64,000 nucleotides of DNA from Candidatus Buchananbacteria bacterium (GCA_013359225.1 JABWCG010000001.1:70410-134409); one strand, 5' to 3'; shown: positions 3,983 through 26,168, numbered from the stretch's first letter. The notes: generated from the letters alone by a model not told the origin. Numbers and translations: made by a program.

Positions 3983-4008
3983 TGGTGATGAATATTTTAG
4001 GGGCGCGC

Positions 4009-4039: not shown

Positions 4040-4043
4040 ATCT

Positions 4044-4072: not shown

Positions 4073-4106
4073 TACTTAGTTGGAATTATTAATTTTTGTA
4101 TATCAG

Positions 4107-4856: not shown

Positions 4857-4858
4857 AT

Positions 4859-6256: not shown

Positions 6257-6257
6257 T

Positions 6258-8344: not shown

Positions 8345-8679
8345 TGGAGTTGTATCGCCGACCGCTCAATTACGGCACGGTGGCAAAGCCAACTAAAAAA
8401 TTTAAAGGCGCAAATCCCTTTTGTGGTGACGCATTAGAAATTTTTGTTGTGCTTGACCAGGATCAAAAAATCAAAACGGTAAAATGGCAAGGTCAGGGTT
8501 GTGTGATCTCACAAGTGGCTGCCTCCGTTTTGACGGAAATGATTAAGGGTAAGACTTTGGCGGCAGCGCAAAAAATTGAGTCGCAAGTGTTGATTGATCA
8601 CCTGGATTTGGAATTGTCGCCGACCAGACGTAAATGTGCTTTGTTGCCGTTATACACCATTAAGGAAATCCAAGATTGA
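8344..8679 (+). CDS. sufU: SufU/NifU-like zinc-dependent sulfurtransferase/scaffold.
   Basis: Start MELYRRPLNYG is typical of SufU/IscU. Conserved Cys in FCGD, GCVIS and RKCALLP. TAATG overlap with sufS. Confidence 0.75.
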   Translation: MELYRRPLNYGTVAKPTKKFKGANPFCGDALEIFVVLDQDQKIKTVKWQGQGCVISQVAASVLTEMIKGKTLAAAQKIESQVLIDHLDLELSPTRRKCALLPLYTIKEIQD

Positions 8680-10887: not shown

Positions 10888-10890
10888 AGT

Positions 10891-11337
10891 ATGGTTCGAG
10901 AAAAAACAATTGGATTTATTATTTTTCGCCGCCAAGGAAAATCGGTTCGCTATTTGCTGCTACATCATGGAGGTGATTATTGGAATTTTCCTAAAGGGCG
11001 TCAAGAAGCCGGAGAGGATGAAGTTACTTCGGCCAGGCGCGAGCTTGAAGAAGAAACTGGTATAACTGCCATTAACATCATTCCAGATTTTCGTGACGAG
11101 TATGATTACGATTTTGATACGGAAATCAGATCGGGGGTTAAAGAACGAATATATAAGAAAGCAATTTTTTTTATGGCCCAAGCCGAAACCGACGAAGTAA
11201 AAATTTCTGATGAGCATATTGATCACGGGTGGTTTGATTATGACACGGCGTTAAAACGGTTGTTTTTCCAAAATGGCCAAAACTTGTTAAAGCGCGCGCA
11301 TAAGTTCCTTTTAAATAAACAGGATTTTGTGTTATAA
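10891..11337 (+). CDS. NUDIX hydrolase.
   Basis: Nudix box GRQEAGEDEVTSARRELEEETGI. Confidence 0.8.
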   Translation: MVREKTIGFIIFRRQGKSVRYLLLHHGGDYWNFPKGRQEAGEDEVTSARRELEEETGITAINIIPDFRDEYDYDFDTEIRSGVKERIYKKAIFFMAQAETDEVKISDEHIDHGWFDYDTALKRLFFQNGQNLLKRAHKFLLNKQDFVL

Positions 11338-14069: not shown

Positions 14070-14939
14070 ATGGATAAAAAAGAAAAAGGATTTGAAGATA
14101 AATTTTTGGGCTTGGATGAAGCGGCGGATGATGACCGTCCGGTAGTAGCTAAATCTTTAAAAGCCAAAAAAACAAAACAGCCGCGCCAGATAAAAAAAGG
14201 CAAGCGGAATAAAAAGAATATTTGGAAGCGTTTAGGTGTTGTGGTTATGATTTTTTTCGTTGGAGTTTTGGTAGTTTTATGTATCGCTGGGATTGTACGA
14301 GTGCCTGTTTTAAGCAACATTTTATATCAAACACCCTCACCGTCACGGGTGGTGTCCGACGTTGTTTTGGGAGAGATAGACCGGACAAAAAATGGGGTTA
14401 ACTTTGATAAGGAATCAAGCGTACTGTCAGTTAAAATCTCTGAAGAGTATCTTTCTTATTTTTTGCAGCAGCTTCAGCTTAAATCAAATGATCCGTCGTT
14501 TGACCAAAATATTCAGGTGGTTGTTGAAAGTGGAGAAATTGAATTTTACGCGACAATGCTGCGGCCGGTAAAAACCGAAATAACGTTGCGAGTTAAACCA
14601 GACATTGGTTCCGGATTGTCTTTGACAAAATTTTTTAAAGTTACTAAGTTTAAGGTTGGCAATCTGCGACTGCCGTCGTTTGTGGCAGAGCTATATTTGA
14701 AAGAATTGATTGAATCTAAATTAAAGACTTTGACTTCAGCTTTTGGCGGCGCCAGTAACTTGATTACCGCCAAGCCGCCTGTTAGCGTCAAAAATCTCGC
14801 ACTTGAGAATGGTTATGCAGAAATTGATATTTATTTTGATATGGCAAAAATTCAGGAAAATATGAAGCAGCTGCCTCAGCTATTGGAAGAGATTCAAAAG
14901 CGATATCCGGCGGCGGCATCTAAAACTATTCAACCATGA
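14070..14939 (+). CDS. Single-pass membrane protein: basic N-terminus, TM segment, extracytoplasmic domain.
   Basis: K/R-rich N-terminal 50 aa, then a TM helix. No known motif. Confidence 0.45.
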   Translation: MDKKEKGFEDKFLGLDEAADDDRPVVAKSLKAKKTKQPRQIKKGKRNKKNIWKRLGVVVMIFFVGVLVVLCIAGIVRVPVLSNILYQTPSPSRVVSDVVLGEIDRTKNGVNFDKESSVLSVKISEEYLSYFLQQLQLKSNDPSFDQNIQVVVESGEIEFYATMLRPVKTEITLRVKPDIGSGLSLTKFFKVTKFKVGNLRLPSFVAELYLKELIESKLKTLTSAFGGASNLITAKPPVSVKNLALENGYAEIDIYFDMAKIQENMKQLPQLLEEIQKRYPAAASKTIQP

Positions 14940-15700
14940 TTATCATTAACCGTTTAATTCCCTGGCTTTCTGCTTTTTTAATTTTGCTTATCTTGGAGCA
15001 GATTTTAGCGACGCCAAAGCAACTGCATTGGTTGATCGGCATGGCTTTAGCGTTGGTGATTTTGGGCGTCTGGCAGCTAATGGACCGGCAGATATTCAAT
15101 AAGCGCTTCGTTGAGTTAGTAACGACGCCAGTGCTGTTTTTGGGAAGTGGTATTTTGTTTTTGAGTTTTTTGCAAGGTAACTTACTGAAACAGGCGGTTA
15201 TCTTAATTCTGGCGTTACTGATTGGTATCTACCTTGAAGTGATATTGTTTCGTTTTCAAATCAGACCCCGGTATCAGCCTCATTCACTAGACAACATATC
15301 GACGCATTTAGGGTTGTTGGCATTATTTTTCTTAAGCAGCGGTTTGTTTAGTCTGATTGTTTTTTTGGGACTACCGTTGTGGTCAGCTGCTTTAATTTTT
15401 GGCGGCGGCTGTTTGTTGCTTACTAGTCAGCTGCTTTGGGTCAGTGAAACAACATTTGTTCGCAGTTGGCAATTTGTTTTTGTGATTTCTTTAGTGGCAA
15501 TGGAAGTATTTTTGGTTGTCGGCTTCATGCCCACTAGTATCAACGTCAATGCGTTAATCGTTTCCTTGGGGTACTATCTTATGGATGGTTTGGCGCGTAA
15601 TTGGCTTTTAGGGATTAAGGAAAAGAAAGTGATTAGACGCTATTTGCTTATTGCGGTATTTTCATTAATAATAATCTTAGCTACTGCTAAGTGGTTTTAA
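14936..15700 (+). CDS. Polytopic membrane protein (6-7 TM).
   Basis: ATGA overlap with the upstream gene. Hydrophobic throughout. Confidence 0.45.
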   Translation: MIIINRLIPWLSAFLILLILEQILATPKQLHWLIGMALALVILGVWQLMDRQIFNKRFVELVTTPVLFLGSGILFLSFLQGNLLKQAVILILALLIGIYLEVILFRFQIRPRYQPHSLDNISTHLGLLALFFLSSGLFSLIVFLGLPLWSAALIFGGGCLLLTSQLLWVSETTFVRSWQFVFVISLVAMEVFLVVGFMPTSINVNALIVSLGYYLMDGLARNWLLGIKEKKVIRRYLLIAVFSLIIILATAKWF

Positions 15701-15701
15701 C

Positions 15702-16868
15702 ATGATTAAAAAGATTTTAGACAAAAAGAATAGTCAGATTTCTCAGGTGGTTATTTTATCCATGATTTTTGGCTTTGGTTCAGGGGTAGTCGGCCAGATT
15801 GTGGCGGATGTTTATATTGATCCGTGGCGGCAGGATTATATCACGCAAGGTATTTATGACAATACGACTGATGTACCCGAGATTCCGCAACTGCGTCGCG
15901 TGGAACGATTCTTGGGTATTGAGCAGGATTTTGAAGTCAATAAATCAATTACAAAAGTTAATTCCGCATTAGTCGGAATTTATAAAAAGAAAGCGGTTTC
16001 TGGACAGGCAGCCCTAAATCAAGTGTATACGGCCGCTGACTTGGTGGCTAATGGCGTGGCATTGACCAGTGATGGTTGGCTTGCAACCCATCAAAAAGCC
16101 TTGGCGGACTTTGATTTAAAGAATTTAGTAGTCATATTCAACCATCAGTTGTTTGAGGTGAAACAAATGGTGCAGGACGAAACCACCGGTGTCGCATTTA
16201 TTAAAATTTCCGCTGACAACTTGGGCATTGTTACTCTCGGAGATTCGCGAGAGTCCACTCTTGGTCAGCTGGGGGTTGTGACTAATGTTTTGGGCGAAGT
16301 GACGGTGGTTAACGTTAAAGACAACGATTATCGTCAGTTAAGCACTCCTCAAGAGTATGTCTTTTCGTCCGAGCGCTATGATTACTCGCTGTTGATTTCC
16401 AAGGGGCTTGATAGCAATTATTTAGGTAGCCCGGTGGTAAATTTGGGCGGAGAAGTAATTGGCATTGTTTATGAAATACGAGACGATGGCCAGGCTTTGG
16501 CAGTGCCAATCAACCAGTTTAAATCAATTATTCTCGATGTGCTGCGCAGTAATACCGTTAACCGGCCGCTCTTGGGCGTGATGTATGTTGATTTAAGCAA
16601 GGTGGTTGGGTTGAATGTTGCCAATGGCAAAGATTTGAGTCGCGGAGCTTTGATTTACCAATCGCCGAACCGCAATACGCCGGCATTTTCAGCCGGATTT
16701 AAGGAAGGCGATATTATTTTGAGTATTGATGGTCAGTTGGTTGACGAGAACAGTAATTTGACGGAATTGATTCAGCAATATCAAGTTGGTGATGAAGTCA
16801 GCATTGAATATCTAAGAAGTGGCGTTACAGCCACAGTTGATGTAGTCTTATCAGCGGCAGTGCAGTAG
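15702..16868 (+). CDS. Trypsin-like (HtrA/DegP-family) protein with C-terminal PDZ domain. The Ser-protease motif is degenerate.
   Basis: HtrA-like core …YLGSPVVNLGGEVIGIV… where the canonical GNSGGPLVN is shortened to GSPVVN. PDZ-like C-terminus (GALIYQSP…GDIILSIDGQLV). N-terminal TM anchor. Confidence 0.6.
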   Translation: MIKKILDKKNSQISQVVILSMIFGFGSGVVGQIVADVYIDPWRQDYITQGIYDNTTDVPEIPQLRRVERFLGIEQDFEVNKSITKVNSALVGIYKKKAVSGQAALNQVYTAADLVANGVALTSDGWLATHQKALADFDLKNLVVIFNHQLFEVKQMVQDETTGVAFIKISADNLGIVTLGDSRESTLGQLGVVTNVLGEVTVVNVKDNDYRQLSTPQEYVFSSERYDYSLLISKGLDSNYLGSPVVNLGGEVIGIVYEIRDDGQALAVPINQFKSIILDVLRSNTVNRPLLGVMYVDLSKVVGLNVANGKDLSRGALIYQSPNRNTPAFSAGFKEGDIILSIDGQLVDENSNLTELIQQYQVGDEVSIEYLRSGVTATVDVVLSAAVQ

Positions 16869-16889
16869 TTAAAATTATTATATAAAAAT

Positions 16890-16924
16890 AACGCAGTCAG
16901 TTTCGGTTTGAAACAGGCTGCGTT
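16890..16924. terminator. Bidirectional rho-independent terminator between the convergent HtrA-like and purA-like genes.
   Basis: Stem aacgcag…ctgcgtt with inner gtttc/gaaac pairing. T-rich on both flanks. Confidence 0.55.
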
Positions 16925-16945
16925 TTGATTTTGGATTAGCCCTCC

Positions 16946-18250
16946 TTAGAGGGTGATAATTTGGCTTCGTTCGGGTCCGGTGCCAACCATGGTTAGCGGT
17001 ATCTGGTACGGCCGACTGATTGCCTCCAGATATCGTTGAGCGTTTTCGGGCAAGTCTGCCCAAGTGGTGACGCCGGTGATATCTTGAGTCCAGCCGGCAA
17101 ATTCGGTAAGTACCGGGGTGATGTGGTCCAGGTCTTCCACGACTGTCGGGAAAAAATCAACCACTTGGCCGCCGGCTCGATATTCGGTGCAAACCATCAG
17201 CGGGTGGATGTTGGTCAAGACATCTACCTTATTGATGACCAGTTTTGTGCCGCGGCCAACCGTAGCGCAGAATTCGCCGATCATGTTGTCACACCAGCCA
17301 ATGTCGCGCGGCCGCTTGGTAGTGACACCGTATTCGTGGCCGCGTTCGCGAATCAGCGTTGCAAGCCTTTCGGGCATTGGCGCCGTGAGTCCGTGTGGTC
17401 CAACACGAGTGATGTATGCCTTGATGACGACGTAATCTTCGGTAATCCAGCTTGGGTCAACACCGACTCCGGATTGAATTGATCCCGGCCAAGTGTTGGA
17501 AGCCGTGCCGTAGGGATAGATCCCTAAGTCGTGGTCCAGCATACCAGCCTGCGCACCTTCGCCGAGGATGACGCCCTCTTGATTGAGAATACTGTTCAGG
17601 TAGGGGATTTCGTTTCCGGCATACGCCAGAATCTGTTCGCGGCATGCTTCCACTTCTGCTACGACTTGATCGATGCTGATTGGTTCTTGTCCAAAGCAAC
17701 CGGTCAGAATCGCGTTGGTATAGTCAAGCGCCGGAGTGACTTGCCTGACGAATTGGTCCATGTTGCGCAGATGGCCGAGGCGAACGCCTTGATACATCCG
17801 GGCAAATCCGTAGGTCTGGCTAATCGCCTTTTTGGTGGTGCCTTTTTTCCCGGCTCCAGCTTCGCGCGCAGCTTCCAATGCCATATGAAACGACAAAGTG
17901 AGTTGTGCGCCTTCAGAGATCAGGAGATTGTCCGGGCTAACTGGAATGCCTTTGGCGCGTAAGCGCTCAATTTCTGCAAGTACGCGTTGCGGATTAATCA
18001 CCATGCCGCGGCCCATAACGCTCATTACGGGCCGTTCCAGACAGCGAATAACACCTGCCGGAATAGCATGAAGATCAATTTCGGTGTTACCAAAAACAAC
18101 ACTGTGGCCGGCATTATCGCCGCCCTGCCAACGAAACACCGCCTGGACCCTTGGGTCGGCGGTTAAGTGGTCAACAACGCGGGCCTTGCCGTTGTCGCCA
18201 AAAATCGGATCGCGCACGATCCAAACGCCACCGTAACCTGGTTTACCCAC
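16946..18250 (-). CDS. purA: Adenylosuccinate synthetase family protein (PurA-like). Divergent at several substrate-binding motifs and encoded in a high-GC islet.
   Basis: PurA-length (434 aa). Motifs FGDNGKAR (cf. QWGDEGKGK), WQGGDNAGHS (cf. GGHNAGHT), GEGAQAG (cf. FEGAQG), GTTKKAISQ (cf. GTTGRGIGP), VTTKRPRDIGW (cf. TTGRRRRTGW). GTG start with AAGGAG RBS. GC about 58%. Confidence 0.75.
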   Translation of the reverse strand: MGKPGYGGVWIVRDPIFGDNGKARVVDHLTADPRVQAVFRWQGGDNAGHSVVFGNTEIDLHAIPAGVIRCLERPVMSVMGRGMVINPQRVLAEIERLRAKGIPVSPDNLLISEGAQLTLSFHMALEAAREAGAGKKGTTKKAISQTYGFARMYQGVRLGHLRNMDQFVRQVTPALDYTNAILTGCFGQEPISIDQVVAEVEACREQILAYAGNEIPYLNSILNQEGVILGEGAQAGMLDHDLGIYPYGTASNTWPGSIQSGVGVDPSWITEDYVVIKAYITRVGPHGLTAPMPERLATLIRERGHEYGVTTKRPRDIGWCDNMIGEFCATVGRGTKLVINKVDVLTNIHPLMVCTEYRAGGQVVDFFPTVVEDLDHITPVLTEFAGWTQDITGVTTWADLPENAQRYLEAISRPYQIPLTMVGTGPERSQIITL

Positions 18251-18357
18251 ATTTTTTCTCCTTGTGAGGTTAGACCAAAATTAAAGCCAAAATAAAAAGG
18301 ACGTTTACCTCCACTGTTGATTTTGGCAGAAAGTGGCTGAGCGGTCAATTTACGAAC

Positions 18358-18657
18358 TTATTCAGGCTTGATAACCCTGGGTTCTTTTTTATCGATAAGA
18401 TCAGGGTGAGGGGAGTAGAGCTTATTTTTGATTTTCCACTTATCCACATACTGACCTATTCCTTTATTAGCTAGTTTATTTTTTGTTGTAGTTCTTCCCT
18501 GTGACCATTCTAATAGACTGTTGAAGTTAATTTTATATCGTCCCTGAACAACAATGTATTTTAAATCTTGGTGCTGGATTGCGCGTCTGATGGTCTTTTG
18601 ATCAACGCCAAAAAGACGGGACGCTTCAGAAACGGTTACTCGGATTACATTTGTCAT
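18358..18657 (-). CDS. Small helix-turn-helix DNA-binding protein (excisionase/HTH_17-like).
   Basis: N-terminal …VSEASRLFGVDQKTIRRAIQ… matches excisionase-family HTH. 99 aa. Lies upstream of, and co-oriented with, the purA-like gene. Confidence 0.55.
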   Translation of the reverse strand: MTNVIRVTVSEASRLFGVDQKTIRRAIQHQDLKYIVVQGRYKINFNSLLEWSQGRTTTKNKLANKGIGQYVDKWKIKNKLYSPHPDLIDKKEPRVIKPE

Positions 18658-18749
18658 AAAATATAATTTTTGTCCAGACTAGTCTGGACAATTTTAGATA
18701 TTTTCAATGAAGTAGCTTTAAATATATTCTACAATTTATGGTTTTTTAC

Positions 18750-18778
18750 TGCAACATATTTCTTTTTTAAACGTCTTA
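18750..18778 (+). promoter_or_regulatory. ECF-sigma-type promoter motif, distal copy.
   Basis: TGCAAC-N16-CGTCTTA. Identical architecture to the proximal copy. Confidence 0.45.
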
Positions 18779-18898
18779 TTTAGTAACACTTAGTACTCTT
18801 TTATTATTCTTTAATTTTTTAAAAATTAGCTTAAAAAGGGCTAATTTTGACTTTTTTAAAGAAAATCGTTATAGTATAGTCTGTTGCGGTTACCTAAC

Positions 18899-18927
18899 TG
18901 TAACGTTTTTTAAGCTCCTACGTCTTA
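18899..18927 (+). promoter_or_regulatory. ECF-sigma-type promoter motif, proximal copy, immediately upstream of the sigma-factor ATG.
   Basis: TGTAAC-N16-CGTCTTA. Resembles sigW/sigX-type AAC-N16/17-CGTC promoters. The predicted TSS is about 5-8 nt downstream, at or next to the ATG at 18932. Confidence 0.5.
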
Positions 18928-18931
18928 ATTA

Positions 18932-19495
18932 ATGAAATCCTCAAATTTCAAGGAAAAAGCCCTATTAATACGGATAAAAAAGAAGGACCCGCAGGCTTTT
19001 TCTGAAGTGTATGATTTGTACGTTACACCTATATATAGGTTTATTTATTTTAAGGTCGCAACCAAACAGGATGCTGAAGATTTGACCTCGGAAGTTTTTC
19101 TGAAGATCTGGCAATATGTAACCGAAACGGAAGAAGAAATCCAAAATCTGCGCGCACTATTGTACCGCACTGCCAGAAATTTGGTTATTGATTTTTATCG
19201 CCGCAATGCCAAACGGGACTTAACGCAGGATTTGGAAGTGCTGGAAACAATAAAAGATGAACGACAGCAAAGCCTCCTGACGCAGATTGATACGGCGTTT
19301 GACATGAAAAATATTGAAAGCATTTTGCGGCAGCTTAAAGATGAATATCGTGAAGTAATCATTTTACGTTTCATCGAAGAATTATCAATTACTGAAATTG
19401 CAAAAGTTTTAGAAAAATCAAAGGGTTCAGTTAGAGTGCTATTGCACCGGGCGCTAAAAGTCGCCAGAGAACTCCTCAACGAAGATGGAAAATAA
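18932..19495 (+). CDS. ECF-type sigma-70 family RNA polymerase sigma factor.
   Basis: Region 2 (…YRFIYFKVATKQDAEDLTSEVFLKIW…) and region 4 HTH (…ELSITEIAKVLEKSKGSVRVLLHRALK…). Confidence 0.85.
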   Translation: MKSSNFKEKALLIRIKKKDPQAFSEVYDLYVTPIYRFIYFKVATKQDAEDLTSEVFLKIWQYVTETEEEIQNLRALLYRTARNLVIDFYRRNAKRDLTQDLEVLETIKDERQQSLLTQIDTAFDMKNIESILRQLKDEYREVIILRFIEELSITEIAKVLEKSKGSVRVLLHRALKVARELLNEDGK

Positions 19496-20372
19496 CGTTA
19501 TTAACGAAATTAAAAATTTAAAACAACAAGTTGTTCCCCGAGCCGAATGGGTGAGTTCGACGCGGGATTTTTTGTTGCAGCAAATTGCAACTGATGCCGC
19601 TTCAGAAAAAGTTTCAGTTGGTATGACGGGATATTGGTCAATTTTTAACCAGACGTTTCGTCAGCGAATGTTTGAGCCGGCGCTGGTAATGATGTTGTTG
19701 TTAGTTTCTTTTGTTGGCAGCAGCCTGACAATCAATGCCGCTTTTTACAGTCTGCCGGGAGATAGTCTCTATAAAGTAAAATTAGCTTTAGAGCAAACGC
19801 ACGTGGCATTGGTGACTGACGAAGAAAAGAAAGTGGAGCTTAAGATGGAATTTGCTCAGAAGCGCGCAGTGGAATTTGATAAGATTGTTGCTCAGTCAGA
19901 TGTGTCCCCGGAAGCCAAGAAGAAAAAGATTGAAGAGGTGGTCAAGGAATTCAAAAATAATGTTGCTGAAGTAAATACTCATTTATCAAAAATTAACCAA
20001 GAAGCCCCAGAAGCGGATCGCAGTTTGAATGTTAAGATGGCATTAACGATTAGTGAAAAGACCGAAGAACTGGCGAAGAATATTGATAAGACCACTAGTA
20101 ACTTAGGTGAAGTTGATAAGAAAGAATTAGAAGGAATTTTAGCTGAGGCTGTACAGTCAGTTCAGGATGTTGGTTTGGCGGCTCAGCAACTAATTAATGA
20201 TGCGCAAATCCCAGCAGGAGATCAGGAAACCGGAGAAGTGCAGGGTGCAACTAACGATGCTGCTGAAACGCCTGAGACAGGGGATGCTAATAATACCGTT
20301 CAAGATGAAACAAAAACCGACGGCGCTACCGTCGAGGAGGTGGTTGAGCAAGTTGAGCCGGCAGGTAATTAA
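19485..20372 (+). CDS. Putative membrane-anchored anti-sigma factor.
   Basis: Overlaps the sigma-gene stop. Cytoplasmic N-terminal about 50 aa, one TM helix (ALVMMLLLVSFVGSSLTI), then an acidic coiled-coil-like extracytoplasmic domain. Confidence 0.5.
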   Translation: MENNVINEIKNLKQQVVPRAEWVSSTRDFLLQQIATDAASEKVSVGMTGYWSIFNQTFRQRMFEPALVMMLLLVSFVGSSLTINAAFYSLPGDSLYKVKLALEQTHVALVTDEEKKVELKMEFAQKRAVEFDKIVAQSDVSPEAKKKKIEEVVKEFKNNVAEVNTHLSKINQEAPEADRSLNVKMALTISEKTEELAKNIDKTTSNLGEVDKKELEGILAEAVQSVQDVGLAAQQLINDAQIPAGDQETGEVQGATNDAAETPETGDANNTVQDETKTDGATVEEVVEQVEPAGN

Positions 20373-20631
20373 TTTAGAAAACCCGGCCATTAATGGCTCG
20401 AGTTTTAAATAAAGTTCTTAATAATTTTTGGAGCAATTAGGGTCTAATCTCCCCTTGGACTGTTAAAGTAAAGGTCGGTTCGAGCTATTCGAAACTTTAA
20501 TGGACTAAGGATTCTGGAGTTAGATGGCCCCTTAAATAAGGGTCCGTATGATGTTATTAGGTTCGCCTAGGCGTAATATCATCTAAGCCTAACCGAGAAT
20601 ATTTAAGAGCTTAAGAAAGGAATAATTTAAC

Positions 20632-23600
20632 ATGATTAAAAGACTATTGACCTACGCTGTTGTTATTACAACCGTTGTCTGGTCAGTTGGTTTACTAGCC
20701 ACTCCGATTGCAGTTGGTGCTGCTGTCAGCGGTGACTTGATCAAGCTCCAGTGTGCTGCTGGTGCTGACGTCAACGATCCTTGCCGTGCAGTCTACTACT
20801 TGGGTGCTGATGGTAAGCGATATGTCTTCCCAAATGAGAAGACCTACAAAACCTGGTACTCAGACTTCAGCGGCGTTCAGACCGTTTCACAAACCGAAAT
20901 GAGTTCATACCCAATCGGTGGAAACGTTACGTACCGCCCAGGTGTCAAGCTAGTAAAAATTACTACTGATCCAAAAGTATATGCAGTCGGTTCCAATGGC
21001 ACCCTTCACTGGGTAACCACTGGCGAAATCGCCGAGGCTCTTTACGGAGCTACTTGGGCCACGATGGTCGAAGACGTTCCTGATGCCTTCTTCGTCAACT
21101 ACACTGTTGGTAGCGACATTAATGCTGCTGCTGACTACAACAAGCAGACTGAGATGGACAATGCTGCGACAATCAATGATGACAAGAACCTCGGTGGCGG
21201 CGCTTCAACTGGAACCAGCTTGAACGTTGCTTTGGCTTCTGACACCCCAGCTACCGGTTTAATTGTTGGTAATTCAATCAACAACAAATTCACCAAAGTG
21301 AATTTGACCGCTTCAGCTGACGGTGACATGGTCATTGACCAGCTCGTCGTCCGACGCGGTGGCACCATTGCTGCTGACAGTGCGTTCTCATCAATTGCTA
21401 TTATTGATGCTGCCACTGGCGCCAGAATTGGTAACACCAAAACCTTGAATTCACAGCATATGGCTGTCTTCAATGAAGACATCACCGTAGCCGCTGGTAC
21501 CACCAAGTCAATCTACTTGGCCGGTAACATGGCTGCTAGCCTAGCTACTAACGCTGGTGAAATCCCAACCCTCGACTTGTACTCAGTTACTTTGTCAGGT
21601 GGTGGCGCCGTTATCGGCAGCTTGCCAATCGTTGGTAATTACCAGACTTTGAACGGTACTATCACTATTGGTGCTTTGTCAGTTTCTGACGGCTCCAACA
21701 ACCCGGATGCTTCAACCCAGAAGATTGGTACAACTAACTACCTAGTTTCAGGTTTCAAGTTGGTTGCCAACTCAGTTGAAGACTTCCACGTCACTTCAAT
21801 CACCTTTGACCAGGGTGGTACTGCTGCAGACGATGACGTTAGCAACCTCGATCTTATCATCGACGACACTATCGTTAAGACTGTCGCTGCTCCATCAAAC
21901 GGCAAAGTGATGTTTGACTTGTCAGCCAGCCCAGTGTTGGTTGAAAAGGGTAAGACTGTTCAAGTCGACCTACAACTTGACATCGCCGACGGTTCAAGCC
22001 GAACTATTCGCTTTGACATTGAAGACGAGTCAGACATTGTAGCTCGCGGACAGCTTTACGGTGCAGAAGTTAAGGTATCTGACGGTGGCGCAGGTGCTGC
22101 ATCAGATGCTACCCCATTCTGGACTGCTCCAGTGACCACTGTTGATACTGGTTCTCTAAGAATTGGTGCTGCTACTTTGAGCGCTGCCAATATCCCAGAG
22201 GATTCAGATCAGGTTGTTTTGGGTAAGTTCGAATTCGAAGCTAAGGGTGAACCAGTTGAAATTTCTTCATTGCCGATTGGCTTTAGAATTGCTACTTCAA
22301 CAGGAAGTTTGGCAACTGACAGTGGAGTTGATTTGACCAACATCACTGTTTATGATGCGAACGGCGCGATTGTCGCTGGTCCATCTGACCCGACTTACAA
22401 GATTCACACCTCGGATTCCACCGCATTATTGCAAGTAACTTCAACCGACACCTTCACTGTTCCAACCGGTCTACACATTTACACCATTAAAGGTGACGTT
22501 GACTCAGACTTTGGCACCAACGACACAATCGTTGCCCATATTAAGCCAGGTCAGGTTACTGCTAAGGGTGAAACAACCGGTTTGACTGTGACCCCAACTC
22601 CAACCACCAGTGAATTGACCTCAGCTACCATGACTGTTCAGTCAGCCCAGTTAGCTGTTTCCGTTTCTTCATTGCCGGTTGCTCAGAGTGTGGTTGCTGG
22701 TACTAAAGGCTTCACCTTTGCCAACGTGGTCTTAGGTGCTGAATCTTCAGGAGAAGACATTAAAGTTACTTCTCTTAAGGTTCAGGTTGATTGTCTAGCT
22801 ACCTGCAGTCCTTCCCAGACTTCAAACTGGAGTCTCTACGATGGTGCGACCAAGTTGTCAGTCACCAACGATCCAGACTCACAGGTTGGAACCAAGACGA
22901 CTGCTGCTGATGATGCTACTTCAACCTTCAACCTCACCACTCCGTTGGTGATTGCGAAGGGTACTTCAAAGACTTTGACCGTCAAGGCTGATCTCAGCAC
23001 TGACGCCACTTCCGGCACAATCACTGTCGGTATTGAAGACACCACCAGCTCAACCATTACTGCTAAAGGTAACAACAGCGGTTTGGATGCTGCCTTAACT
23101 GTCAGCGTTTCAGACGGTCAGACAATGACCTTGAACTCAGGCGGTGCTTTGACCATCACCCGAGACACTACGTCTCCAAAAGATGGCCTATTGCCTGCTA
23201 ACTCCGAAGGTTTGACCTTCGCTGTGTTCAGCGCTGTTGCCCAGTACGAAGATGTAAATATTGAGAAGCTATACCTCACTGCAGTTCAGGCTAACAGCGG
23301 CGGTCTAGACCAGATCAATAAGGTTTACATCTACAACGGCAGCACCAAGTTGGCTGAAGTTACTCCAACTTCAACTGACGGTACTGACCGAACTGTCTTG
23401 ATCGATGTCACCAACAACCCAATCGTTGTTGCCAAGGACACTAGCGTTAAGTTGACCATCAAGGTTGACACCGCTAACTCCAACTACGAAGTCGGTTCAA
23501 AGGGTGCTTCTGGTCAGGGTCTATGGTTGAAGATTGCTTCCGCTGCTGATGTCACCGCTAAGGGTGCTCAGTCCGGAACAACTTTGGCCACAGCTGCGAA

Positions 23601-24354
23601 GACCATTAACAATGCTTCGTCAACTGCTCAGTACTTGTTCCGATCCGTCCCGACTCTTGCCACCAACGACTTATTGTCAAGTGGTAAGGTCTCAGGCGGT
23701 ACCTTAACTGCTGGTACTGAAGCTTCAAAGAGTTTGTACGCCTTCTCGGTGACTGCAGACTCAAAGGGTGACATTGCTTTGCATCGTGTCAACTTCAACA
23801 TTTCAACCAACGTCGCTACCATCACTAACATGATGATTACCGACGGTACTGAAAATGTTGCATACCAGTTGTCAGCCGGTTCAAGCTTTATCGGCACCAA
23901 CGATGCTGGCACTGATTCCTGGACTGGAGAAGCTCCGTTCTTCTTCGTCAACAATCAGACCGCCCCATCAGCGTACACCGGAACGAACGTTGTTCCTTAC
24001 GTCATTCCTGCCGGTACCACCAAGACCTTCACCCTTAAAGGTGATGTCCAGTGTGCCGCAGTTGGCGGAAGCGACTGTTCAACTTCAAGTGGAAGCGGAT
24101 CACTTAGTATCCAGATGCTCGGCGATACCTCATTGCTAGGTACCGTCCCAACTGGTGCTACTGCTCTTGCTGCCTCTGATGCTAAATTGGGTGACGCTGC
24201 ATTCGTCTGGTCAGATCTATGGCGAACCAGCATCCAGGGTATTTCATCAACAACCGCTTCAACCACCGAACAGTGGTCAAACGGTGCCTACGTTGCTTTG
24301 AGCAATGGCGGTAAGATGATTGCCACCTCTTCAGCTGTTACCTTCAGCCGCTAA
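20632..24354 (+). CDS. Large secreted repetitive surface protein (1240 aa). S-layer/cell-surface glycoprotein candidate.
   Basis: N-terminal signal/TM. About 30% Thr+Ser plus abundant Gly/Ala/Val. Recurring about 100-150-aa units that each end in …(V/I)TAKG(x)2SG…. About 240-nt leader. Strong terminator downstream. Confidence 0.7.
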   Translation: MIKRLLTYAVVITTVVWSVGLLATPIAVGAAVSGDLIKLQCAAGADVNDPCRAVYYLGADGKRYVFPNEKTYKTWYSDFSGVQTVSQTEMSSYPIGGNVTYRPGVKLVKITTDPKVYAVGSNGTLHWVTTGEIAEALYGATWATMVEDVPDAFFVNYTVGSDINAAADYNKQTEMDNAATINDDKNLGGGASTGTSLNVALASDTPATGLIVGNSINNKFTKVNLTASADGDMVIDQLVVRRGGTIAADSAFSSIAIIDAATGARIGNTKTLNSQHMAVFNEDITVAAGTTKSIYLAGNMAASLATNAGEIPTLDLYSVTLSGGGAVIGSLPIVGNYQTLNGTITIGALSVSDGSNNPDASTQKIGTTNYLVSGFKLVANSVEDFHVTSITFDQGGTAADDDVSNLDLIIDDTIVKTVAAPSNGKVMFDLSASPVLVEKGKTVQVDLQLDIADGSSRTIRFDIEDESDIVARGQLYGAEVKVSDGGAGAASDATPFWTAPVTTVDTGSLRIGAATLSAANIPEDSDQVVLGKFEFEAKGEPVEISSLPIGFRIATSTGSLATDSGVDLTNITVYDANGAIVAGPSDPTYKIHTSDSTALLQVTSTDTFTVPTGLHIYTIKGDVDSDFGTNDTIVAHIKPGQVTAKGETTGLTVTPTPTTSELTSATMTVQSAQLAVSVSSLPVAQSVVAGTKGFTFANVVLGAESSGEDIKVTSLKVQVDCLATCSPSQTSNWSLYDGATKLSVTNDPDSQVGTKTTAADDATSTFNLTTPLVIAKGTSKTLTVKADLSTDATSGTITVGIEDTTSSTITAKGNNSGLDAALTVSVSDGQTMTLNSGGALTITRDTTSPKDGLLPANSEGLTFAVFSAVAQYEDVNIEKLYLTAVQANSGGLDQINKVYIYNGSTKLAEVTPTSTDGTDRTVLIDVTNNPIVVAKDTSVKLTIKVDTANSNYEVGSKGASGQGLWLKIASAADVTAKGAQSGTTLATAAKTINNASSTAQYLFRSVPTLATNDLLSSGKVSGGTLTAGTEASKSLYAFSVTADSKGDIALHRVNFNISTNVATITNMMITDGTENVAYQLSAGSSFIGTNDAGTDSWTGEAPFFFVNNQTAPSAYTGTNVVPYVIPAGTTKTFTLKGDVQCAAVGGSDCSTSSGSGSLSIQMLGDTSLLGTVPTGATALAASDAKLGDAAFVWSDLWRTSIQGISSTTASTTEQWSNGAYVALSNGGKMIATSSAVTFSR

Positions 24355-24388
24355 TAGCGAAGCGAGAAGACTAACTAGTCTGTAACCT

Positions 24389-24420
24389 AAAAAGTCCCCT
24401 GCGAAAGTGGGGGACTTTTA
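24389..24420 (+). terminator. Rho-independent terminator after the surface-protein gene.
   Basis: Perfect 10-bp stem aaaagtcccc/ggggactttt, followed by a T-rich tract. Confidence 0.7.
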
Positions 24421-24464
24421 GGTTTGATTATTTCTGATTTTTTTGCTAAATTTAACTTATATTT

Positions 24465-26168
24465 ATGTTGAAATCGCTTTTAAAAATTAAATATCTTTTG
24501 CCAGCTATAGTCTTTGTGATAGCGGCGATTTTAATTTTTGGCGGCCTCACGCGAGCTGACGTTCAGCATGATGATGCAACGTATTCTTTCCGTTCGCTGG
24601 GCTATTTGGATTTTATGAATTCGCAGTTGCAAACCACGCCGTTACAGTGGTTTGAAACCGTTCCGACTTGGTCAAAACTGTCATTTCATGACCATCCACC
24701 ATTAACCTTTGCCCTGCAACATGTTTCTTTCAAGTTGTTTGGCCCGTCGCTGTTTGCGTCGCGCTTGCCTTCTGCGCTGGCCGGAGTGTTTTCGGTTGTT
24801 CTGTTATTTCTTATTGCTAAAAAACAGTATGATTTTAAAACGGCAGCTTTGGCCAGCGCTTTGTTGGGAGTACTAGCAATTCATTCCTGGATGAGTCAGA
24901 TTTCTTATTTAGAACCAGTTGCCGTTTTTCTGATTTTACTGACAGTATATTTATTTATCCTTGCTTTAGAAAAAGAAATATGGTGGCTTGGCTTTGGCGC
25001 CAGTTTGGGTTTAACGCTTTTAACTAAATACACAGTATTATTCATCATTCCGGCGCTGGCAATATATCTTTTATTGTATCACCGTAAAATATTTTTTAAT
25101 AAGTATTTTATTGTTTCTATGGTGTTGGCAGTTCTGATTTTTTCGCCGGTGGTGTACTACAATATCAAAATGTATCAAGCTCGCGGACACTTTGATTTGC
25201 AGCTTTCAGTGTTATTAAATCAGGATCGTTCTGATTGGCCGGGCATATCGCGCAACAGTGCCGGTGTTAATTTTCTTAACAACCTGACGACAATTTTTAA
25301 AGATTTATTTGCTGTTATCTCTTTACCAATGTATTTGATGCTTTGCTTTTTAACAATATATGGCGCCATTATGAGCTTTATTGAGCGTCAAAAAAACAAA
25401 ACCAATTTTATTTTTTTGCTGTTGTTGCTATTTGTAACAATTTTAATTGCCGTCACCGGCGCTGTTGTCCGATTCGATTATCTGCTGCTACCCTTTGTGG
25501 TGGTTATTGCTAGTTGGGCATCGTTTGATATTTATCAGCGTTATATCGCATCTCGGCCTGACCGGAAAGGACGAACGATTATTATCTTGCTGGCTTTGGG
25601 TGCAGTAATAGTATTTGAACTGTTTTACAACATTAATACTAATCTGCTCGCCATACCGCTTGGTGAGCGGGGTAGAGCATACTCGGAATACCGCTGGGAA
25701 AACGGCGGATTTAATGAGTTGGAAGAATATTTGATTAGTCAGGGTCTACATTTTGAAATCACCAATCACGTCGATTCTTTGAGCGACACGATGTTTCAGG
25801 CTGATCAGTTGTCCGGGCAAAAGGTTTTTGTCTATGATCCAAACTTGAATTGGTTTTCAACAATGTGGTATTTTTCAAAGTGGTCGGTGTACAATAGAGA
25901 GTTTTTTATTTCGGCAGCGGATTTGATGCGTATCTTGCCGAACACTAATTGGTTTGATTTCTTTAAGGAGCAGGGAGCTGAAACTATCTATTATATTCGG
26001 GGGGCAAATAAGGTTGTATTCGGCCCGGGTGAAGTAGAGGCGGTGAATCAGCAGTCGGCCAGCGCCTTGGAAAATATTTTTATTTCTTCTGGGGCCAAGG
26101 CGGATTTAGTCCGTAATGCAAATGATGATTTAGCTTTTAAAGTTTATAAAATTAATTTACAAGAGTAA
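24465..26168 (+). CDS. Glycosyltransferase family 39 (PMT/ArnT-like GT-C, polyprenyl-phosphate-sugar-dependent), paralog 1.
   Basis: Polytopic. N-terminal region …LSFHDHPPLTFALQHVSFKLFG…RLPSALAGV… is typical of GT39/GT83 proteins. Large C-terminal soluble domain. Confidence 0.65.
   Translation: MLKSLLKIKYLLPAIVFVIAAILIFGGLTRADVQHDDATYSFRSLGYLDFMNSQLQTTPLQWFETVPTWSKLSFHDHPPLTFALQHVSFKLFGPSLFASRLPSALAGVFSVVLLFLIAKKQYDFKTAALASALLGVLAIHSWMSQISYLEPVAVFLILLTVYLFILALEKEIWWLGFGASLGLTLLTKYTVLFIIPALAIYLLLYHRKIFFNKYFIVSMVLAVLIFSPVVYYNIKMYQARGHFDLQLSVLLNQDRSDWPGISRNSAGVNFLNNLTTIFKDLFAVISLPMYLMLCFLTIYGAIMSFIERQKNKTNFIFLLLLLFVTILIAVTGAVVRFDYLLLPFVVVIASWASFDIYQRYIASRPDRKGRTIIILLALGAVIVFELFYNINTNLLAIPLGERGRAYSEYRWENGGFNELEEYLISQGLHFEITNHVDSLSDTMFQADQLSGQKVFVYDPNLNWFSTMWYFSKWSVYNREFFISAADLMRILPNTNWFDFFKEQGAETIYYIRGANKVVFGPGEVEAVNQQSASALENIFISSGAKADLVRNANDDLAFKVYKINLQE

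What the first reader, a model, noticed from the sequence alone, without database searches (positions are those of the whole stretch)
16880..18660. High-GC islet carrying a divergent adenylosuccinate-synthetase-family gene next to an excisionase-like HTH gene
GC rises from about 40% to about 58% across 16930-18260, which suggests horizontal acquisition. The encoded 434-aa PurA-family protein keeps the catalytic Asp/Lys/His/Gln positions. Three nucleotide/aspartate-binding motifs are substituted: GDEGKGK to GDNGKAR, GTTGRGIGP to GTTKKAISQ, and TTGRRRRTGW to TTKRPRDIGW. Either substrate specificity is altered (PurA paralogs such as phage PurZ use dGMP/dATP), or this is a relaxed copy. The upstream neighbour is an HTH_17 (excisionase-type) gene, and bidirectional terminators flank the unit.
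Basis: partly seen in the sequence, partly recalled or inferred. Interest (0 to 1): 0.65.

Follow-up and report, generated by a model that had tools for sequence, protein, structure and literature searches.

The report
Accessory divergent PurA gene in CPR bacterium
A GC-rich, fast-evolving but intact adenylosuccinate-synthetase (PurA) gene sits as a single-gene, present-or-absent cassette in a conserved chromosomal slot of a tiny Candidatus Buchananbacteria genome; the neighbouring 'excisionase-like' gene is an unrelated, widely conserved small regulator.

Summary
The core observation holds. ORF 16946-18250(-) encodes a 434-aa PurA-family protein. It is the strongest GC outlier of 55 window ORFs (0.548 vs 0.405±0.03), and an HTH_17 gene lies upstream. 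The protein is a full-length AdSS fold (pLDDT 92.5; TM 0.93-0.94 to B. anthracis and E. coli PurA). Every catalytic, aspartate-binding and GTP-binding residue is kept. It is not PurZ.

Two of the three "substituted motifs" are normal in Bacillus-type PurA. The real signature belongs to a small clade found only in CPR bacteria (Buchananbacteria and Doudnabacteria). It rewrites the dimer-interface/IMP-phosphate segment: R143→Y in 19/19, coupled to S240→A, D139/K140 lost, and Arg gained at 141.

The gene is a cassette with its own promoter. Five loci sharing the same backbone, including the closest relatives, lack it, and HTH and HtrA there are separated only by a terminator. The gene tree mixes the two CPR lineages, so the gene has been exchanged horizontally, but long ago.

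The HTH belongs to the backbone and has its own conserved palindromic site. About 8 of the 14 excess GC points come from amino-acid composition. About 6 come from C-ending codons, and this recurs across the clade without explanation.

The most likely function is an accessory IMP→AMP salvage enzyme. An altered substrate is not excluded.

The parts
16946..18250 (-). PurA-like (adenylosuccinate-synthetase family) CDS, 434 aa, GTG start. It belongs to a small divergent clade found only in CPR bacteria.
   Evidence: ORF. Pfam PF00709 E=2e-113. Below the NCBIfam purA equivalog cut-offs, 367<402 and 320<396. AF2 pLDDT 92.5; TM 0.93-0.94 to 4m9d and 1cg3. Clade signature.
18320..18348 (-). Sigma-70-like promoter of the cassette (TTGACC-17 nt-CAAAAT, with an extended TG), located in the HTH-PurA intergenic region.
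   Evidence: Flagged. By eye, each of the five other distinct group-A intergenic sequences (L001, L002, L004/L005, L007, L008) carries a comparable TTGACx-17-TAxxAT site. This is consensus-level evidence only.
18308..18312 (-). GGAGG pentamer just downstream of the promoter. It is the only invariant block in the leader across the six aligned group-A sequences. Its role is unknown.
   Evidence: Alignment A3: five invariant columns, no consensus RNA structure. No Rfam hit in 16700-19000.
18258..18263 (-). Shine-Dalgarno sequence AAGGAG, 7 nt upstream of the GTG start.
   Evidence: Read directly from the sequence.
16880..16924 (.). Bidirectional intrinsic terminator shared by the convergent PurA-like and HtrA-like genes. 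It is homologous to the terminator found in the PurA-less 'empty' sites.
   Evidence: dG -17.3 kcal/mol, z -2.89, followed by a U run. (+ strand site 16904-16920). The same AAAACGCxG...CxGCGTT-T-run core appears in L001, L004 and L040.
18317..18326 (-). Upstream copy of the 10-nt direct repeat CCAAAATCAA that brackets the cassette. It overlaps the -10 element.
   Evidence: longest word shared by the two flanking spacers; equalled in 4 of 500 shuffles. Seen in this genome only (an 8-nt analogue in L008, 35/500).
16925..16934 (-). Downstream copy of the direct repeat CCAAAATCAA, between the stop codon and the terminator stem.
   Evidence: The empty site L040 has a single similar word (CCAAAAAAAC) at the matching position.
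18358..18657 (-). HTH_17 small DNA-binding protein, 99 aa. It is a backbone gene, not part of the cassette.
   Evidence: Pfam HTH_17 E=1.2e-7. At least 947 homologous clusters in Parcubacteria, the top 120 at 69% identity or more. Present next to HtrA in loci that lack PurA-like.
18671..18690 (.). Perfect palindrome TGTCCAGACTAGTCTGGACA, 13 nt upstream of the HTH start codon. It is a candidate operator for the HTH protein.
   Evidence: Single match in the 64-kb window (0.03 expected). One copy upstream of the HTH gene in all 15 backbone-sharing loci and none in the 26 others. Arm changes keep the symmetry.

Best explanation
The region holds an accessory single-gene cassette: its own promoter, a leader and the ORF, ending at a shared terminator. 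It encodes a divergent but functional adenylosuccinate synthetase. The most likely activity is the canonical one: GTP-dependent phosphorylation of IMP at O6, followed by displacement by L-aspartate to give adenylosuccinate. That would give a nucleotide-scavenging CPR bacterium an optional IMP→AMP route for balancing its purine pools.

The gene belongs to a small clade confined to Buchananbacteria-like and Doudnabacteria-like CPR lineages. The clade evolves quickly, has been lost repeatedly and has been exchanged between those lineages. In this clade the dimer-interface segment that normally delivers Arg143 to the IMP 5'-phosphate is rewritten (EDKxxRR becomes A/G-F-A-R-M/L-Y-Q, together with S240A).

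The high GC has two sources. One is the Gly/Ala/Arg/Pro-rich composition of the enzyme. The other is a C-ending codon bias that recurs in the clade. I read the bias as a legacy of exchange with GC-richer CPR genomes, possibly reinforced by selection.

The HTH_17 neighbour is an independent backbone regulator with its own palindromic site.

Shown: fold, residue conservation, cassette polymorphism, clade limits and composition statistics. Inferred: enzymatic activity, physiological role, the cause of the codon bias and the operator function of the palindrome.
For: Family and fold:
- Pfam full-length match.
- Best PDB sequence hits are bacterial PurA at E=5e-82.
- AF2 pLDDT 92.5 and pTM 0.91; TM 0.93-0.94 and rmsd 1.7-1.9 Å to ligated B. 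anthracis and E. coli AdSS.

Active site:
- D13, K16, N38, H41, T129, Q224, T239, T301, R303, R305, K331 and D333 are kept in the query. All twelve are retained (T301 as S in 3; R303 missing in 1) in the 19 clade members.
- The 15-sequence clade alignment has 93 invariant columns.

Clade limits:
- 15 clusters at 49-58% identity, then a drop to 38%.
- 4 representatives in the 1.84-billion-protein library.
- 5 of 185,579 GTDB species.
- Clade monophyly 200/200 bootstraps.

Cassette status:
- The same slot is occupied in L001, L002, L004, L007, L008, L013 and L014.
- The slot is empty in L038-L041 and holds an unrelated gene in L037.
- The flank tree places the window inside the PurA-less group: (window,L040) 200/200, and with (L037,L038) 197/200.

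Exchange between lineages:
- A second gene context (methyltransferase / PurA-like / GDH-TrxB) occurs in genomes whose TrxB is 99% identical to a Doudnabacteria protein.
- Context A is monophyletic in only 1 of 200 bootstraps.

Composition:
- Expected GC from the gene's amino acids and the window's codon usage is 0.487; observed is 0.548.
- Observed minus expected is +0.03 to +0.12 in 7 of 10 clade genes. It is -0.02 to +0.013 in 15 control CPR/DPANN purA genes (16th, L034, +0.029).

Tolerance of losing R143: the E. coli R143L mutant was crystallised with 6-phosphoryl-IMP (PDB 1cg3 title).

Against: - No activity data exist.
- The protein scores below both NCBIfam purA equivalog cut-offs.
- R143 is Arg in 236 of 243 canonical PurA and is conserved even in PurZ (as R146; PMC8342488). 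It is Tyr in all 19 clade members. D139 and K140 are also lost. IMP affinity, oligomeric state or the nucleotide substrate could therefore differ.
- No purB, no second purA and no other purine-salvage gene was found by motif scans of the 64-kb window. The rest of the 601-kb genome could not be searched, so the downstream lyase step is unverified.
- The gene is only 43-57% identical between genomes whose MgsA and T2SSE proteins are 71-80% identical, and it has been lost repeatedly. Both facts fit weak constraint.
- The codon bias persists although synonymous sites are saturated. It is present even in the GC-rich hosts, and it favours C-ending rather than G+C-ending codons. Simple incomplete amelioration explains this poorly.
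- All trees are neighbour-joining only.
Confidence: 0.6

Rival explanations
1. Neofunctionalised ligase. The clade keeps the phosphoryl-transfer and aspartate chemistry of AdSS but acts on a different nucleotide, or on the same base with a different 5' end or sugar. Examples are GMP/XMP, deoxy-IMP, a nucleoside diphosphate produced by RNA phosphorolysis, or a changed oligomeric state. The rewritten 5'-phosphate/dimer-interface site and the altered P-loop flank would underlie the change.
For: - R143Y in 19/19 members, coupled to S240A (Fisher p=1.7e-5 among non-clade sequences).
- D139 and K140 replaced. G8D, Q10L/I, W11F, E14G/N/C, G134S, T234I, V238T and the 278-280 LVA segment differ at positions that are 85-100% conserved in 243 canonical PurA.
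- In PurZ, residues Y21-S23, which on my alignment of the P-loop motifs (not a tool result) correspond to PurA 11-13, lie next to the purine 2-position (PMC8342488).
- Scores fall below the equivalog cut-offs.
- The gene is accessory and fast-evolving.
Against: - Every residue known to contact the base, the ribose, aspartate, Mg2+ and guanine is conserved.
- Most clade members gain an Arg at position 141 (13/19), which could replace R143.
- G8D and loss of E14 also occur in many other CPR/DPANN PurA that keep R143. Y143/A240 occurs in otherwise ordinary CPR PurA (L019, L035, P0144, P0176).
- The backbone superimposes on ligated AdSS at 1.7-1.9 Å.
Confidence: 0.2
2. Relaxed copy on its way to loss. 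The gene is a dispensable remnant with no selected function.
For: - Patchy presence with at least two losses.
- Identity of 43-57% where neighbouring housekeeping proteins are 71-80% identical.
- The window, L007 and L008 copies sit on long branches.
Against: - The reading frame is intact at full length in about 20 independent lineages.
- There are 93 invariant columns, including all catalytic residues.
- The fold prediction is confident.
- Promoter, Shine-Dalgarno site and terminator are retained.
- Synonymous sites are saturated while the protein is conserved, which implies purifying selection.
Confidence: 0.07
3. HTH plus PurA-like form one functional or mobile unit: either an excisionase-bearing islet, or an operon in which the HTH protein regulates PurA-like.
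For: - The two genes are adjacent and on the same strand in all group-A loci that carry PurA-like.
- The HTH protein resembles the excisionase/MerR HTH type.
- No terminator is evident between the two genes in the window.
Against: - The HTH gene and its palindrome remain in place in the five loci that lack PurA-like.
- PurA-like occurs without any HTH gene in context B.
- The palindrome is never found upstream of PurA-like, which has its own promoter-like site.
- No integrase, transposase or adjacent tRNA is present.
Confidence: 0.05
4. The excess GC is maintained by selection on this gene's codons, for example C-ending codons in a highly expressed gene. It is not a trace of foreign origin.
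For: - The excess is specific to C-ending codons. NNY codons are 0.57-0.61 C against 0.26-0.38 (0.26 + strand genes, 0.38 the three other - strand genes) (0.27's ORF set). Four-fold sites are 0.42 C. G-ending codons are not enriched.
- NNC exceeds the local reference in all 10 clade genes and in both contexts, including the GC-rich hosts.
- Synonymous sites are saturated, so a purely historical signal should have decayed.
Against: - No expression data exist, and the sequence held contains no ribosomal-protein reference set.
- An accessory, repeatedly lost gene is an odd candidate for high expression.
- L001/L013 and L004 show almost no excess.
- Part of the C>G asymmetry fits the gene's orientation against the prevailing strand.
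Confidence: 0.3
5. A PurZ-like enzyme that makes the 2-aminoadenine precursor from dGMP and ATP.
For: It belongs to the same superfamily, and there is a weak hit to the PurZ HMM (47 bits).
Against: - The cut-off is 300 bits.
- D13 is kept, whereas PurZ has Ser. The GTP motif NKVD is kept, whereas PurZ uses N/F/Q for adenine.
- The protein is a full-length 434-aa bacterial type, not the short archaeal-like type.
- TM to PurZ, DgsS and PurZ0 structures is 0.52-0.65 with rmsd 5-7 Å.
- No datZ, mazZ or phage genes lie nearby.
Confidence: 0.01

Closest known systems
Bacterial adenylosuccinate synthetase PurA (E. coli 1ade/1cg0/1cg3; B. anthracis 4m0g/4m9d)
   Same: - Full-length fold: TM 0.93-0.94, rmsd 1.7-1.9 Å.
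- P-loop Asp/Lys, GGxNAGH His, Gln224, and the IMP ligands N38, T129 and T239.
- Aspartate loop TT-x-R-x-R and the NKxD guanine motif.
- GTTKK and RPR are shared with the Bacillus type.
   Different: - 31-36% structure-based identity to PDB PurA; 37-38% to the nearest non-clade PurA.
- Below the NCBIfam equivalog cut-offs.
- R143→Y, S240→A, D139/K140 lost and R gained at 141.
- G8D, Q10L/I, W11F, E14N, G17A, G134S, P135Q, T234I, and the 276-281 GPFPTE segment rewritten.
- Accessory rather than core, patchily distributed, with anomalous codon usage.
Other divergent PurA of CPR bacteria and DPANN archaea (for example Parcubacteria L019, Saccharibacteria L035, Woesebacteria L026, Aenigmatarchaeota L016)
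   Same: - Many share G8D and loss of E14.
- L019, L035, L032, P0144 and P0176 share the Y143/A240 pair.
- Their hosts are also small-genome symbionts.
   Different: - Only 28-35% identical to the query, and outside the 200/200-supported clade.
- They keep D139/K140, G134/P135 and GPFPTE.
- Their GC matches what is expected from local codon usage (obs-exp -0.02 to +0.013, one control L034 +0.029).
Phage PurZ / DgsS / PurZ0 (2-aminoadenine pathway)
   Same: Same superfamily and the same phosphoryl-transfer-plus-aspartate chemistry. Both are AdSS paralogues acquired as accessory genes.
   Different: - PurZ has Ser in place of D13 and an adenine pocket in place of NKxD.
- PurZ has the short archaeal-type architecture and retains the cross-subunit Arg (R146).
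- It sits in a datZ/mazZ gene context.
- None of these apply here.

Membership tests
Adenylosuccinate synthetase (PurA, EC 6.3.4.4) | Full-length match to the family profile (Pfam PF00709) | tested here: met
   E=2e-113, residues 17-432 against profile positions 7-416 of 416.
Adenylosuccinate synthetase (PurA, EC 6.3.4.4) | Score above the curated equivalog cut-offs (NCBIfam NF002223, TIGR00184) | tested here: not met
   367.4 bits against a cut-off of 402; 319.6 against 395.55.
Adenylosuccinate synthetase (PurA, EC 6.3.4.4) | Catalytic residues D13, K16, H41, Q224 and N38 (E. coli numbering) | tested here: met
   These correspond to D19, K22, H49, Q234 and N46. All five are invariant in the 19 clade members.
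Adenylosuccinate synthetase (PurA, EC 6.3.4.4) | IMP 5'-phosphate ligands T129 and T239, plus Arg143 supplied by the partner subunit | tested here: not met
   T129 and T239 are kept. R143 is Tyr (Y153) in 19/19 clade members, against Arg in 236 of 243 canonical sequences. A possible substitute Arg is present at position 141 in 13/19.
Adenylosuccinate synthetase (PurA, EC 6.3.4.4) | Aspartate-binding loop (T300/T301, R303, R305) and the GTP base motif (N/T)KxD | tested here: met
   TTKRPR keeps T, T, R303 and R305. NKVD is kept. S414 is Gly, as it is in 27 canonical sequences.
Adenylosuccinate synthetase (PurA, EC 6.3.4.4) | AdSS three-dimensional fold | tested here: met
   pLDDT 92.5; TM 0.93-0.94 to 4m9d and 1cg3.
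Adenylosuccinate synthetase (PurA, EC 6.3.4.4) | Catalyses IMP + Asp + GTP → adenylosuccinate, with an adenylosuccinate lyase (PurB) in the same genome | not testable with these tools
No fumarate-lyase signature was found in the 64-kb window, and the rest of the 601-kb contig could not be read.
PurZ (succino-amino-deoxyadenylate synthase) | Profile NF038379 scored above its cut-off | tested here: not met
   47.1 bits against a cut-off of 300.
PurZ (succino-amino-deoxyadenylate synthase) | Ser in place of D13 next to the purine 2-amino group, and an adenine-specific pocket (N/F/Q) in place of NKxD | tested here: not met
   The query has D19 and NKVD. The PurZ features are taken from PMC8342488.
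PurZ (succino-amino-deoxyadenylate synthase) | Short archaeal-type architecture, and a phage Z-cluster context (datZ, mazZ) | tested here: not met
   The protein is 434 aa. TM to PurZ structures is 0.52-0.65. The neighbours are HtrA, an ECF sigma factor, pilins and the SUF operon.
Integrative genomic island with excisionase | Presence/absence polymorphism against a conserved backbone | tested here: met
   The slot is empty in L038-L041 and holds a different gene in L037.
Integrative genomic island with excisionase | Integrase or recombinase present, and the excisionase gene belongs to the variable segment | tested here: not met
   No integrase was found among the ORFs scanned (1242-8679, 9640-11337, 14070-26168). 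The HTH gene stays in place in the empty sites.
Integrative genomic island with excisionase | Flanking att-like direct repeats, or insertion next to a tRNA gene | tested here: inconclusive
   A 10-nt direct repeat brackets the cassette in the window (equalled in 4 of 500 shuffles). It is not found in L001, L002, L004 or L007. The only tRNA gene is 8 kb away.

The most novel reading that the evidence does not exclude
The Buchananbacteria/Doudnabacteria clade could be a previously unrecognised AdSS paralogue in which the cross-subunit Arg143/Ser240 phosphate clamp and the adjoining interface are replaced (Y143/A240, F139, A140, R141). The replacement would change what is recognised at the 5' end of the nucleotide, or the oligomeric state. 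The enzyme might then act on a substrate other than IMP, such as another 6-oxopurine nucleotide or a diphosphate released by RNA phosphorolysis in RNA-feeding CPR cells. On this reading the gene circulates among CPR lineages as a self-contained accessory cassette, and its C-ending codon bias is actively maintained.
Probability: 0.12. Interest if true: 0.7.

Novelty: new variant of a known kind. Interest (0 to 1): 0.4.

Why it matters
Most CPR (Patescibacteria) genomes lack nucleotide biosynthesis, and how these cells balance their nucleotide pools is an open question. This locus is a concrete, experimentally tractable case. An AdSS-family gene is optional, is exchanged between CPR lineages, and carries a coordinated change at an Arg that is otherwise conserved in 236 of 243 sampled PurA sequences and retained in PurZ. 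If the enzyme is a normal AdSS, it identifies which CPR lineages can convert IMP to AMP. It also shows that Arg143 can be replaced in nature. If it is not a normal AdSS, it is a new member of the small set of neofunctionalised PurA paralogues, of which PurZ is the precedent. The persistent, gene-specific codon bias across saturated divergence is a small but clean puzzle about what sets composition in tiny genomes.

Tried and rejected
- **RNA elements.** Rfam found nothing in 16700-19000 at E≤1 and only one tRNA in the whole window. RNAalifold on six leader sequences predicted no structure. A riboswitch or structured-RNA explanation for the GC or the leader was dropped.
- **Overlapping nucleotide-level element as the cause of high GC.** Four-fold-site identity among nine orthologues is 0.32, against 0.28 expected from composition, and is flat along the gene. 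Rejected.
- **Defence-system membership.** PADLOC gave no hit for PurA-like and only a marginal HTH similarity to mad1. Rejected.
- **My interim conclusion that this is not an islet and is purely vertical.** I reached it from six syntenic loci. It was overturned when searching with the HTH protein revealed PurA-less relatives.
- **First palindrome pattern.** It had the wrong spacing and matched nothing. The corrected pattern worked.
- **Direct repeats as a general cassette boundary.** The signal is significant only in the window, so it was not adopted.
- **Looking for purB or a second purA.** Motif scans of the window were negative. I found no route with these tools to the remaining ~540 kb of the genome.
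- **Literature.** No paper in the library describes this clade. Searches returned only PurZ work and one CPR nucleotide-metabolism preprint.
Full report
**1. What is in the sequence**

The window comes from a Candidatus Buchananbacteria (CPR/Patescibacteria) MAG. The exact protein is on a 601,517-bp contig and is annotated by NCBI as adenylosuccinate synthetase.

ORF 16946-18250 on the minus strand has a GTG start with AAGGAG 7 nt upstream and encodes 434 aa. Its GC is 0.548 and its GC3 0.582. The 54 other ORFs of the window average 0.405±0.030 and 0.396±0.042, giving z-scores of 4.8 and 4.4. It is the most extreme gene in the window.

The upstream gene 18358-18657(-) is a 99-aa HTH_17 protein.

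A stable hairpin followed by a U run lies between the convergent stop codons of PurA-like and the HtrA-like gene, and it works as a terminator in both directions. The other supposed terminator (18670-18691) is different. It is a perfect palindrome 13 nt upstream of the HTH start codon, and nothing is transcribed into it.

**2. The protein is a full-length AdSS with an intact catalytic apparatus**

Pfam matches end to end at E=2e-113. The best solved relatives are bacterial PurA. An AlphaFold model built on 53 sequences has pLDDT 92.5. It superimposes on B. anthracis and E. coli AdSS at TM 0.93-0.94 and rmsd 1.7-1.9 Å. PurZ, DgsS and PurZ0 reach only TM 0.52-0.65.

I verified a recalled E. coli PurA sequence as identical to PDB 1kjx. 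I then aligned 19 clade members with 243 other PurA sequences. D13, K16, N38, H41, T129, Q224, T239, T301, R303, R305, K331 and D333 are kept in the query. All twelve are retained (T301 as S in 3; R303 missing in 1) across the clade.

PurZ is excluded. It has Ser instead of D13 and an adenine pocket instead of NKxD (PMC8342488). The query keeps D and NKVD, and it scores 47 bits against a PurZ cut-off of 300.

**3. The protein nevertheless belongs to a distinct, narrow clade**

The protein falls below both NCBIfam purA equivalog cut-offs. Its relatives form a cliff. Fifteen 90%-identity clusters lie at 49-58% identity, and everything else is at 38% or less. In the 1.84-billion-representative library only four proteins score above 330 bits. 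Only five of 185,579 GTDB species carry a member. Neighbour-joining bootstraps support the clade at 200/200.

The clade differs from canonical PurA at the following positions, which are 85-100% conserved in canonical sequences:

| Position (E. coli numbering) | Change in the clade |
|---|---|
| G8 | D |
| Q10 | L/I |
| W11 | F |
| E14 | G/N/C |
| G17 | A |
| G134 | S |
| P135 | Q |
| D139 | F |
| K140 | A |
| R143 | Y (19/19) |
| T234 | I |
| V238 | T |
| S240 | A |
| G264 | variable |
| FPT 278-280 | LVA |
| S414 | G |

R143 is the residue the partner subunit inserts onto the IMP 5'-phosphate. Even PurZ keeps it, as R146.

Y143 is statistically coupled to A240 among non-clade sequences (Fisher p=1.7e-5). 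The pair recurs in a few other CPR/DPANN PurA: L019, L035, L032, P0144 and P0176. In 13 of 19 clade members an Arg appears two residues earlier, at position 141. Canonical enzymes have Ala, Val or Ile there, so this may be a compensating relocation.

G8D and the loss of E14 are common in other CPR/DPANN PurA that keep R143, so the P-loop change is not peculiar to this gene. The PDB title of 1cg3 shows that E. coli R143L still forms 6-phosphoryl-IMP.

My reading is that the chemistry is retained. The affinity or geometry at the phosphate/dimer site is altered. A change of substrate is possible but not indicated.

**4. The gene is a cassette and the HTH is backbone**

Six diverged relatives show the same gene order. 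An ECF sigma/DUF5667 pair is transcribed divergently from HTH_17. HTH_17 is followed by PurA-like, which converges on HtrA, DUF5656, pilins, T2SSE, NUDIX and MgsA. At first this looked like plain vertical inheritance.

Searching with the HTH protein changed the picture. The HTH family is large and well conserved in Parcubacteria (at least 947 clusters, the top 120 at 69% identity or more). In the window's nearest relatives the same backbone has no PurA-like gene:
- L040/L041 have T2SSE 91%, sigma 85% and HTH 86% identical to the window.
- In L038/L039 and L040/L041, HTH and HtrA are separated by only a 66-107-nt terminator.
- L037 has an unrelated 595-aa gene in the slot.

A tree of five flanking proteins (1024 columns) gives (window,L040) at 200/200. 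That pair joins (L037,L038) at 197/200. All PurA-bearing loci fall outside. This requires either ancestral presence with at least two losses, or one loss and a regain.

Within this context PurA-like identity roughly tracks flank identity. That favours old presence with losses.

The variable segment runs from about 15 nt past the HTH stop to just before the terminator stem. It therefore brings its own promoter-like site, TTGACC-17-CAAAAT. By eye, comparable sites are present in the other group-A intergenic sequences listed.

The palindrome GTCYAS-N6-STRGAC occurs once in the window (0.03 expected). It occurs once upstream of the HTH gene in all 15 backbone loci, with or without PurA-like, and never in the 26 other loci. 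It belongs to the HTH gene and is probably its operator. The ORFs scanned with Pfam (1242-8679, 9640-11337 and 14070-26168) include no integrase or transposase, and the only tRNA is 8 kb away. The left flank is the SUF operon.

**5. A second context, and exchange between CPR lineages**

In L009, L011, L012 and L015 the gene sits between a divergently transcribed SAM-methyltransferase/membrane-protein/UPF0102 group and a convergent GDH-TrxB pair. There is no HTH.

The TrxB of L012 is 99% identical to a Candidatus Doudnabacteria protein. Its next named relatives are Parcubacteria and Patescibacteria.

Copies from the two contexts are as similar to each other (60-66%) as the "core" Buchananbacteria copies are among themselves (62-65%). 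Context A is monophyletic in only 1 of 200 bootstraps. A Doudnabacteria-context sequence from a 57% GC genome (P0123) is basal in 177 of 200. This points to transfer between lineages. These are neighbour-joining results on long branches, so the direction and number of transfers are open.

**6. The GC excess, taken apart**

Using the window's own codon usage, the gene's amino-acid composition alone predicts GC 0.487. About 8 of the 14 excess points are therefore simply a Gly/Ala/Arg/Pro-rich enzyme.

The remaining ~6 points are codon choice, and specifically C-ending codons:

| Codon class | PurA-like | Other window genes |
|---|---|---|
| NNY, fraction ending in C | 0.57 | 0.26 (+ strand), 0.38 (− strand) |
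| Four-fold sites, fraction C | 0.42 | 0.22-0.30 |
| G-ending codons | not enriched | — |

The same calculation on other loci gives observed-minus-expected of +0.03 to +0.12 in 7 of 10 clade genes. These span both contexts and host genomes from 37 to 56% GC. The value is about 0 in L001/L013 and L004. In 15 control CPR/DPANN purA genes it is -0.02 to +0.013, with one further control (L034) at +0.029.

Synonymous sites among orthologues are saturated, and no segment is conserved at the nucleotide level. The bias is therefore real, gene-specific and recurrent. Simple incomplete amelioration does not explain it well.

Three candidate explanations remain:
- repeated exchange with GC-richer Doudnabacteria-like genomes;
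- translational selection for NNC codons;
- a contribution from the gene's orientation against the prevailing strand.

I cannot separate them with the data available.

**7. Function**

The most likely function is an optional adenylosuccinate synthetase. It would feed IMP, derived from hypoxanthine or inosine salvage or from GMP reduction, into AMP. The host belongs to a phylum in which 93% of genomes lack de novo nucleotide synthesis and the nucleotide-biosynthesis genes are scattered (bioRxiv 10.64898/2026.06.21.733656). The gene's dispensability in close relatives fits such a pool-balancing role.

The unverified step is the lyase. Motif scans found no purB signature, second purA or other salvage-enzyme motif in the 64-kb window, and the rest of the genome could not be searched.

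**8. Verdict**

The horizontal-acquisition idea is right in a modified form: this is an old, accessory cassette exchanged between lineages. The excisionase/unit idea and the PurZ analogy are wrong.

The finding is a new variant of a known enzyme family, with a modest open question about substrate and oligomeric state and an unexplained codon bias.

Noticed in passing
window 18671-18690, and upstream of the HTH gene in L001-L008, L013, L014 and L037-L041: A 20-bp palindrome (consensus TGTCYAS-N6-STRGACA) lies upstream of the HTH_17 start, directly upstream in most loci but up to about 180 nt in L001/L004/L013, where an insertion intervenes. Arm changes preserve the symmetry, for example CCAG/CTGG against CTAC/GTAG. 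It occurs once per locus and nowhere else. It is probably the autoregulatory operator of a small DNA-binding protein that is widespread in Parcubacteria.
   Followed up: partly
L004 about 6090-6215 and the equivalent position in L001; absent from L005: L004 carries an insertion of about 125 bp relative to L005, with terminal inverted repeats (CCCCGCACCGAAGTC...GACTTGGTGCGGGG). It sits between the palindrome and the HTH start. L004 and L005 encode the identical PurA-like protein (P0006), so this looks like a MITE-like element that is polymorphic between strains.
   Followed up: no
L037 6393-8180 (minus strand): In one relative, the slot between HTH and HtrA that holds PurA-like in the window holds an unrelated 595-aa gene with no Pfam match. 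The slot therefore appears to be a small hotspot for accessory genes.
   Followed up: no
window 18317-18326 and 16925-16934: A 10-nt direct repeat, CCAAAATCAA, brackets the PurA-like cassette. It is equalled in 4 of 500 shuffles. The empty site in L040 has one similar word. L008 has an 8-nt analogue, and the other loci have none. It could be a scar of insertion, a substrate for deletion, or chance.
   Followed up: partly
window 18308-18312; equivalent positions in L001, L002, L004, L007 and L008: An invariant GGAGG lies a few nucleotides downstream of the cassette's promoter-like site and 30-60 nt upstream of the true Shine-Dalgarno site and start codon. In several loci it is followed by a hairpin and a T run that resemble an attenuator. 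RNAalifold found no consensus structure and Rfam gave no hit.
   Followed up: partly
L002 7547-8000: In this relative the HTH-PurA spacer is 454 nt instead of about 100 nt. It contains a GC-rich stretch (52%, including a 68-codon ORF) of unknown nature.
   Followed up: no
L016-L035 (GTDB loci of Woesebacteria, Roizmanbacteria, Saccharibacteria, Aenigmatarchaeota, Woesearchaeota, Nanoarchaeota): Many CPR and DPANN PurA homologues outside the clade also replace the almost universal G8 (with D) and E14 (with N/C/G) of the P-loop region. This may be a shared or convergent feature of PurA in ultra-small symbionts.
   Followed up: partly
window 18932-24354: An ECF sigma factor and a DUF5667 protein (a likely anti-sigma factor), followed by a 1240-aa Thr/Ala/Gly-rich protein with an N-terminal hydrophobic segment, are transcribed divergently from the HTH gene. 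The arrangement is conserved in most related loci (in L004/L007 the large protein is shorter, 864-907 aa). The large protein has the second-highest GC in the window (0.489), driven by GC2.
   Followed up: no
L011, L012, L015, L023-L025 and L027 record titles: Several GTDB-collection MAGs that carry clearly CPR-type loci are titled 'uncultured Gammaproteobacteria bacterium' (binchicken/SRP isolates). For L012 the labelling appears wrong: its TrxB is 99% identical to a Doudnabacteria protein.
   Followed up: partly
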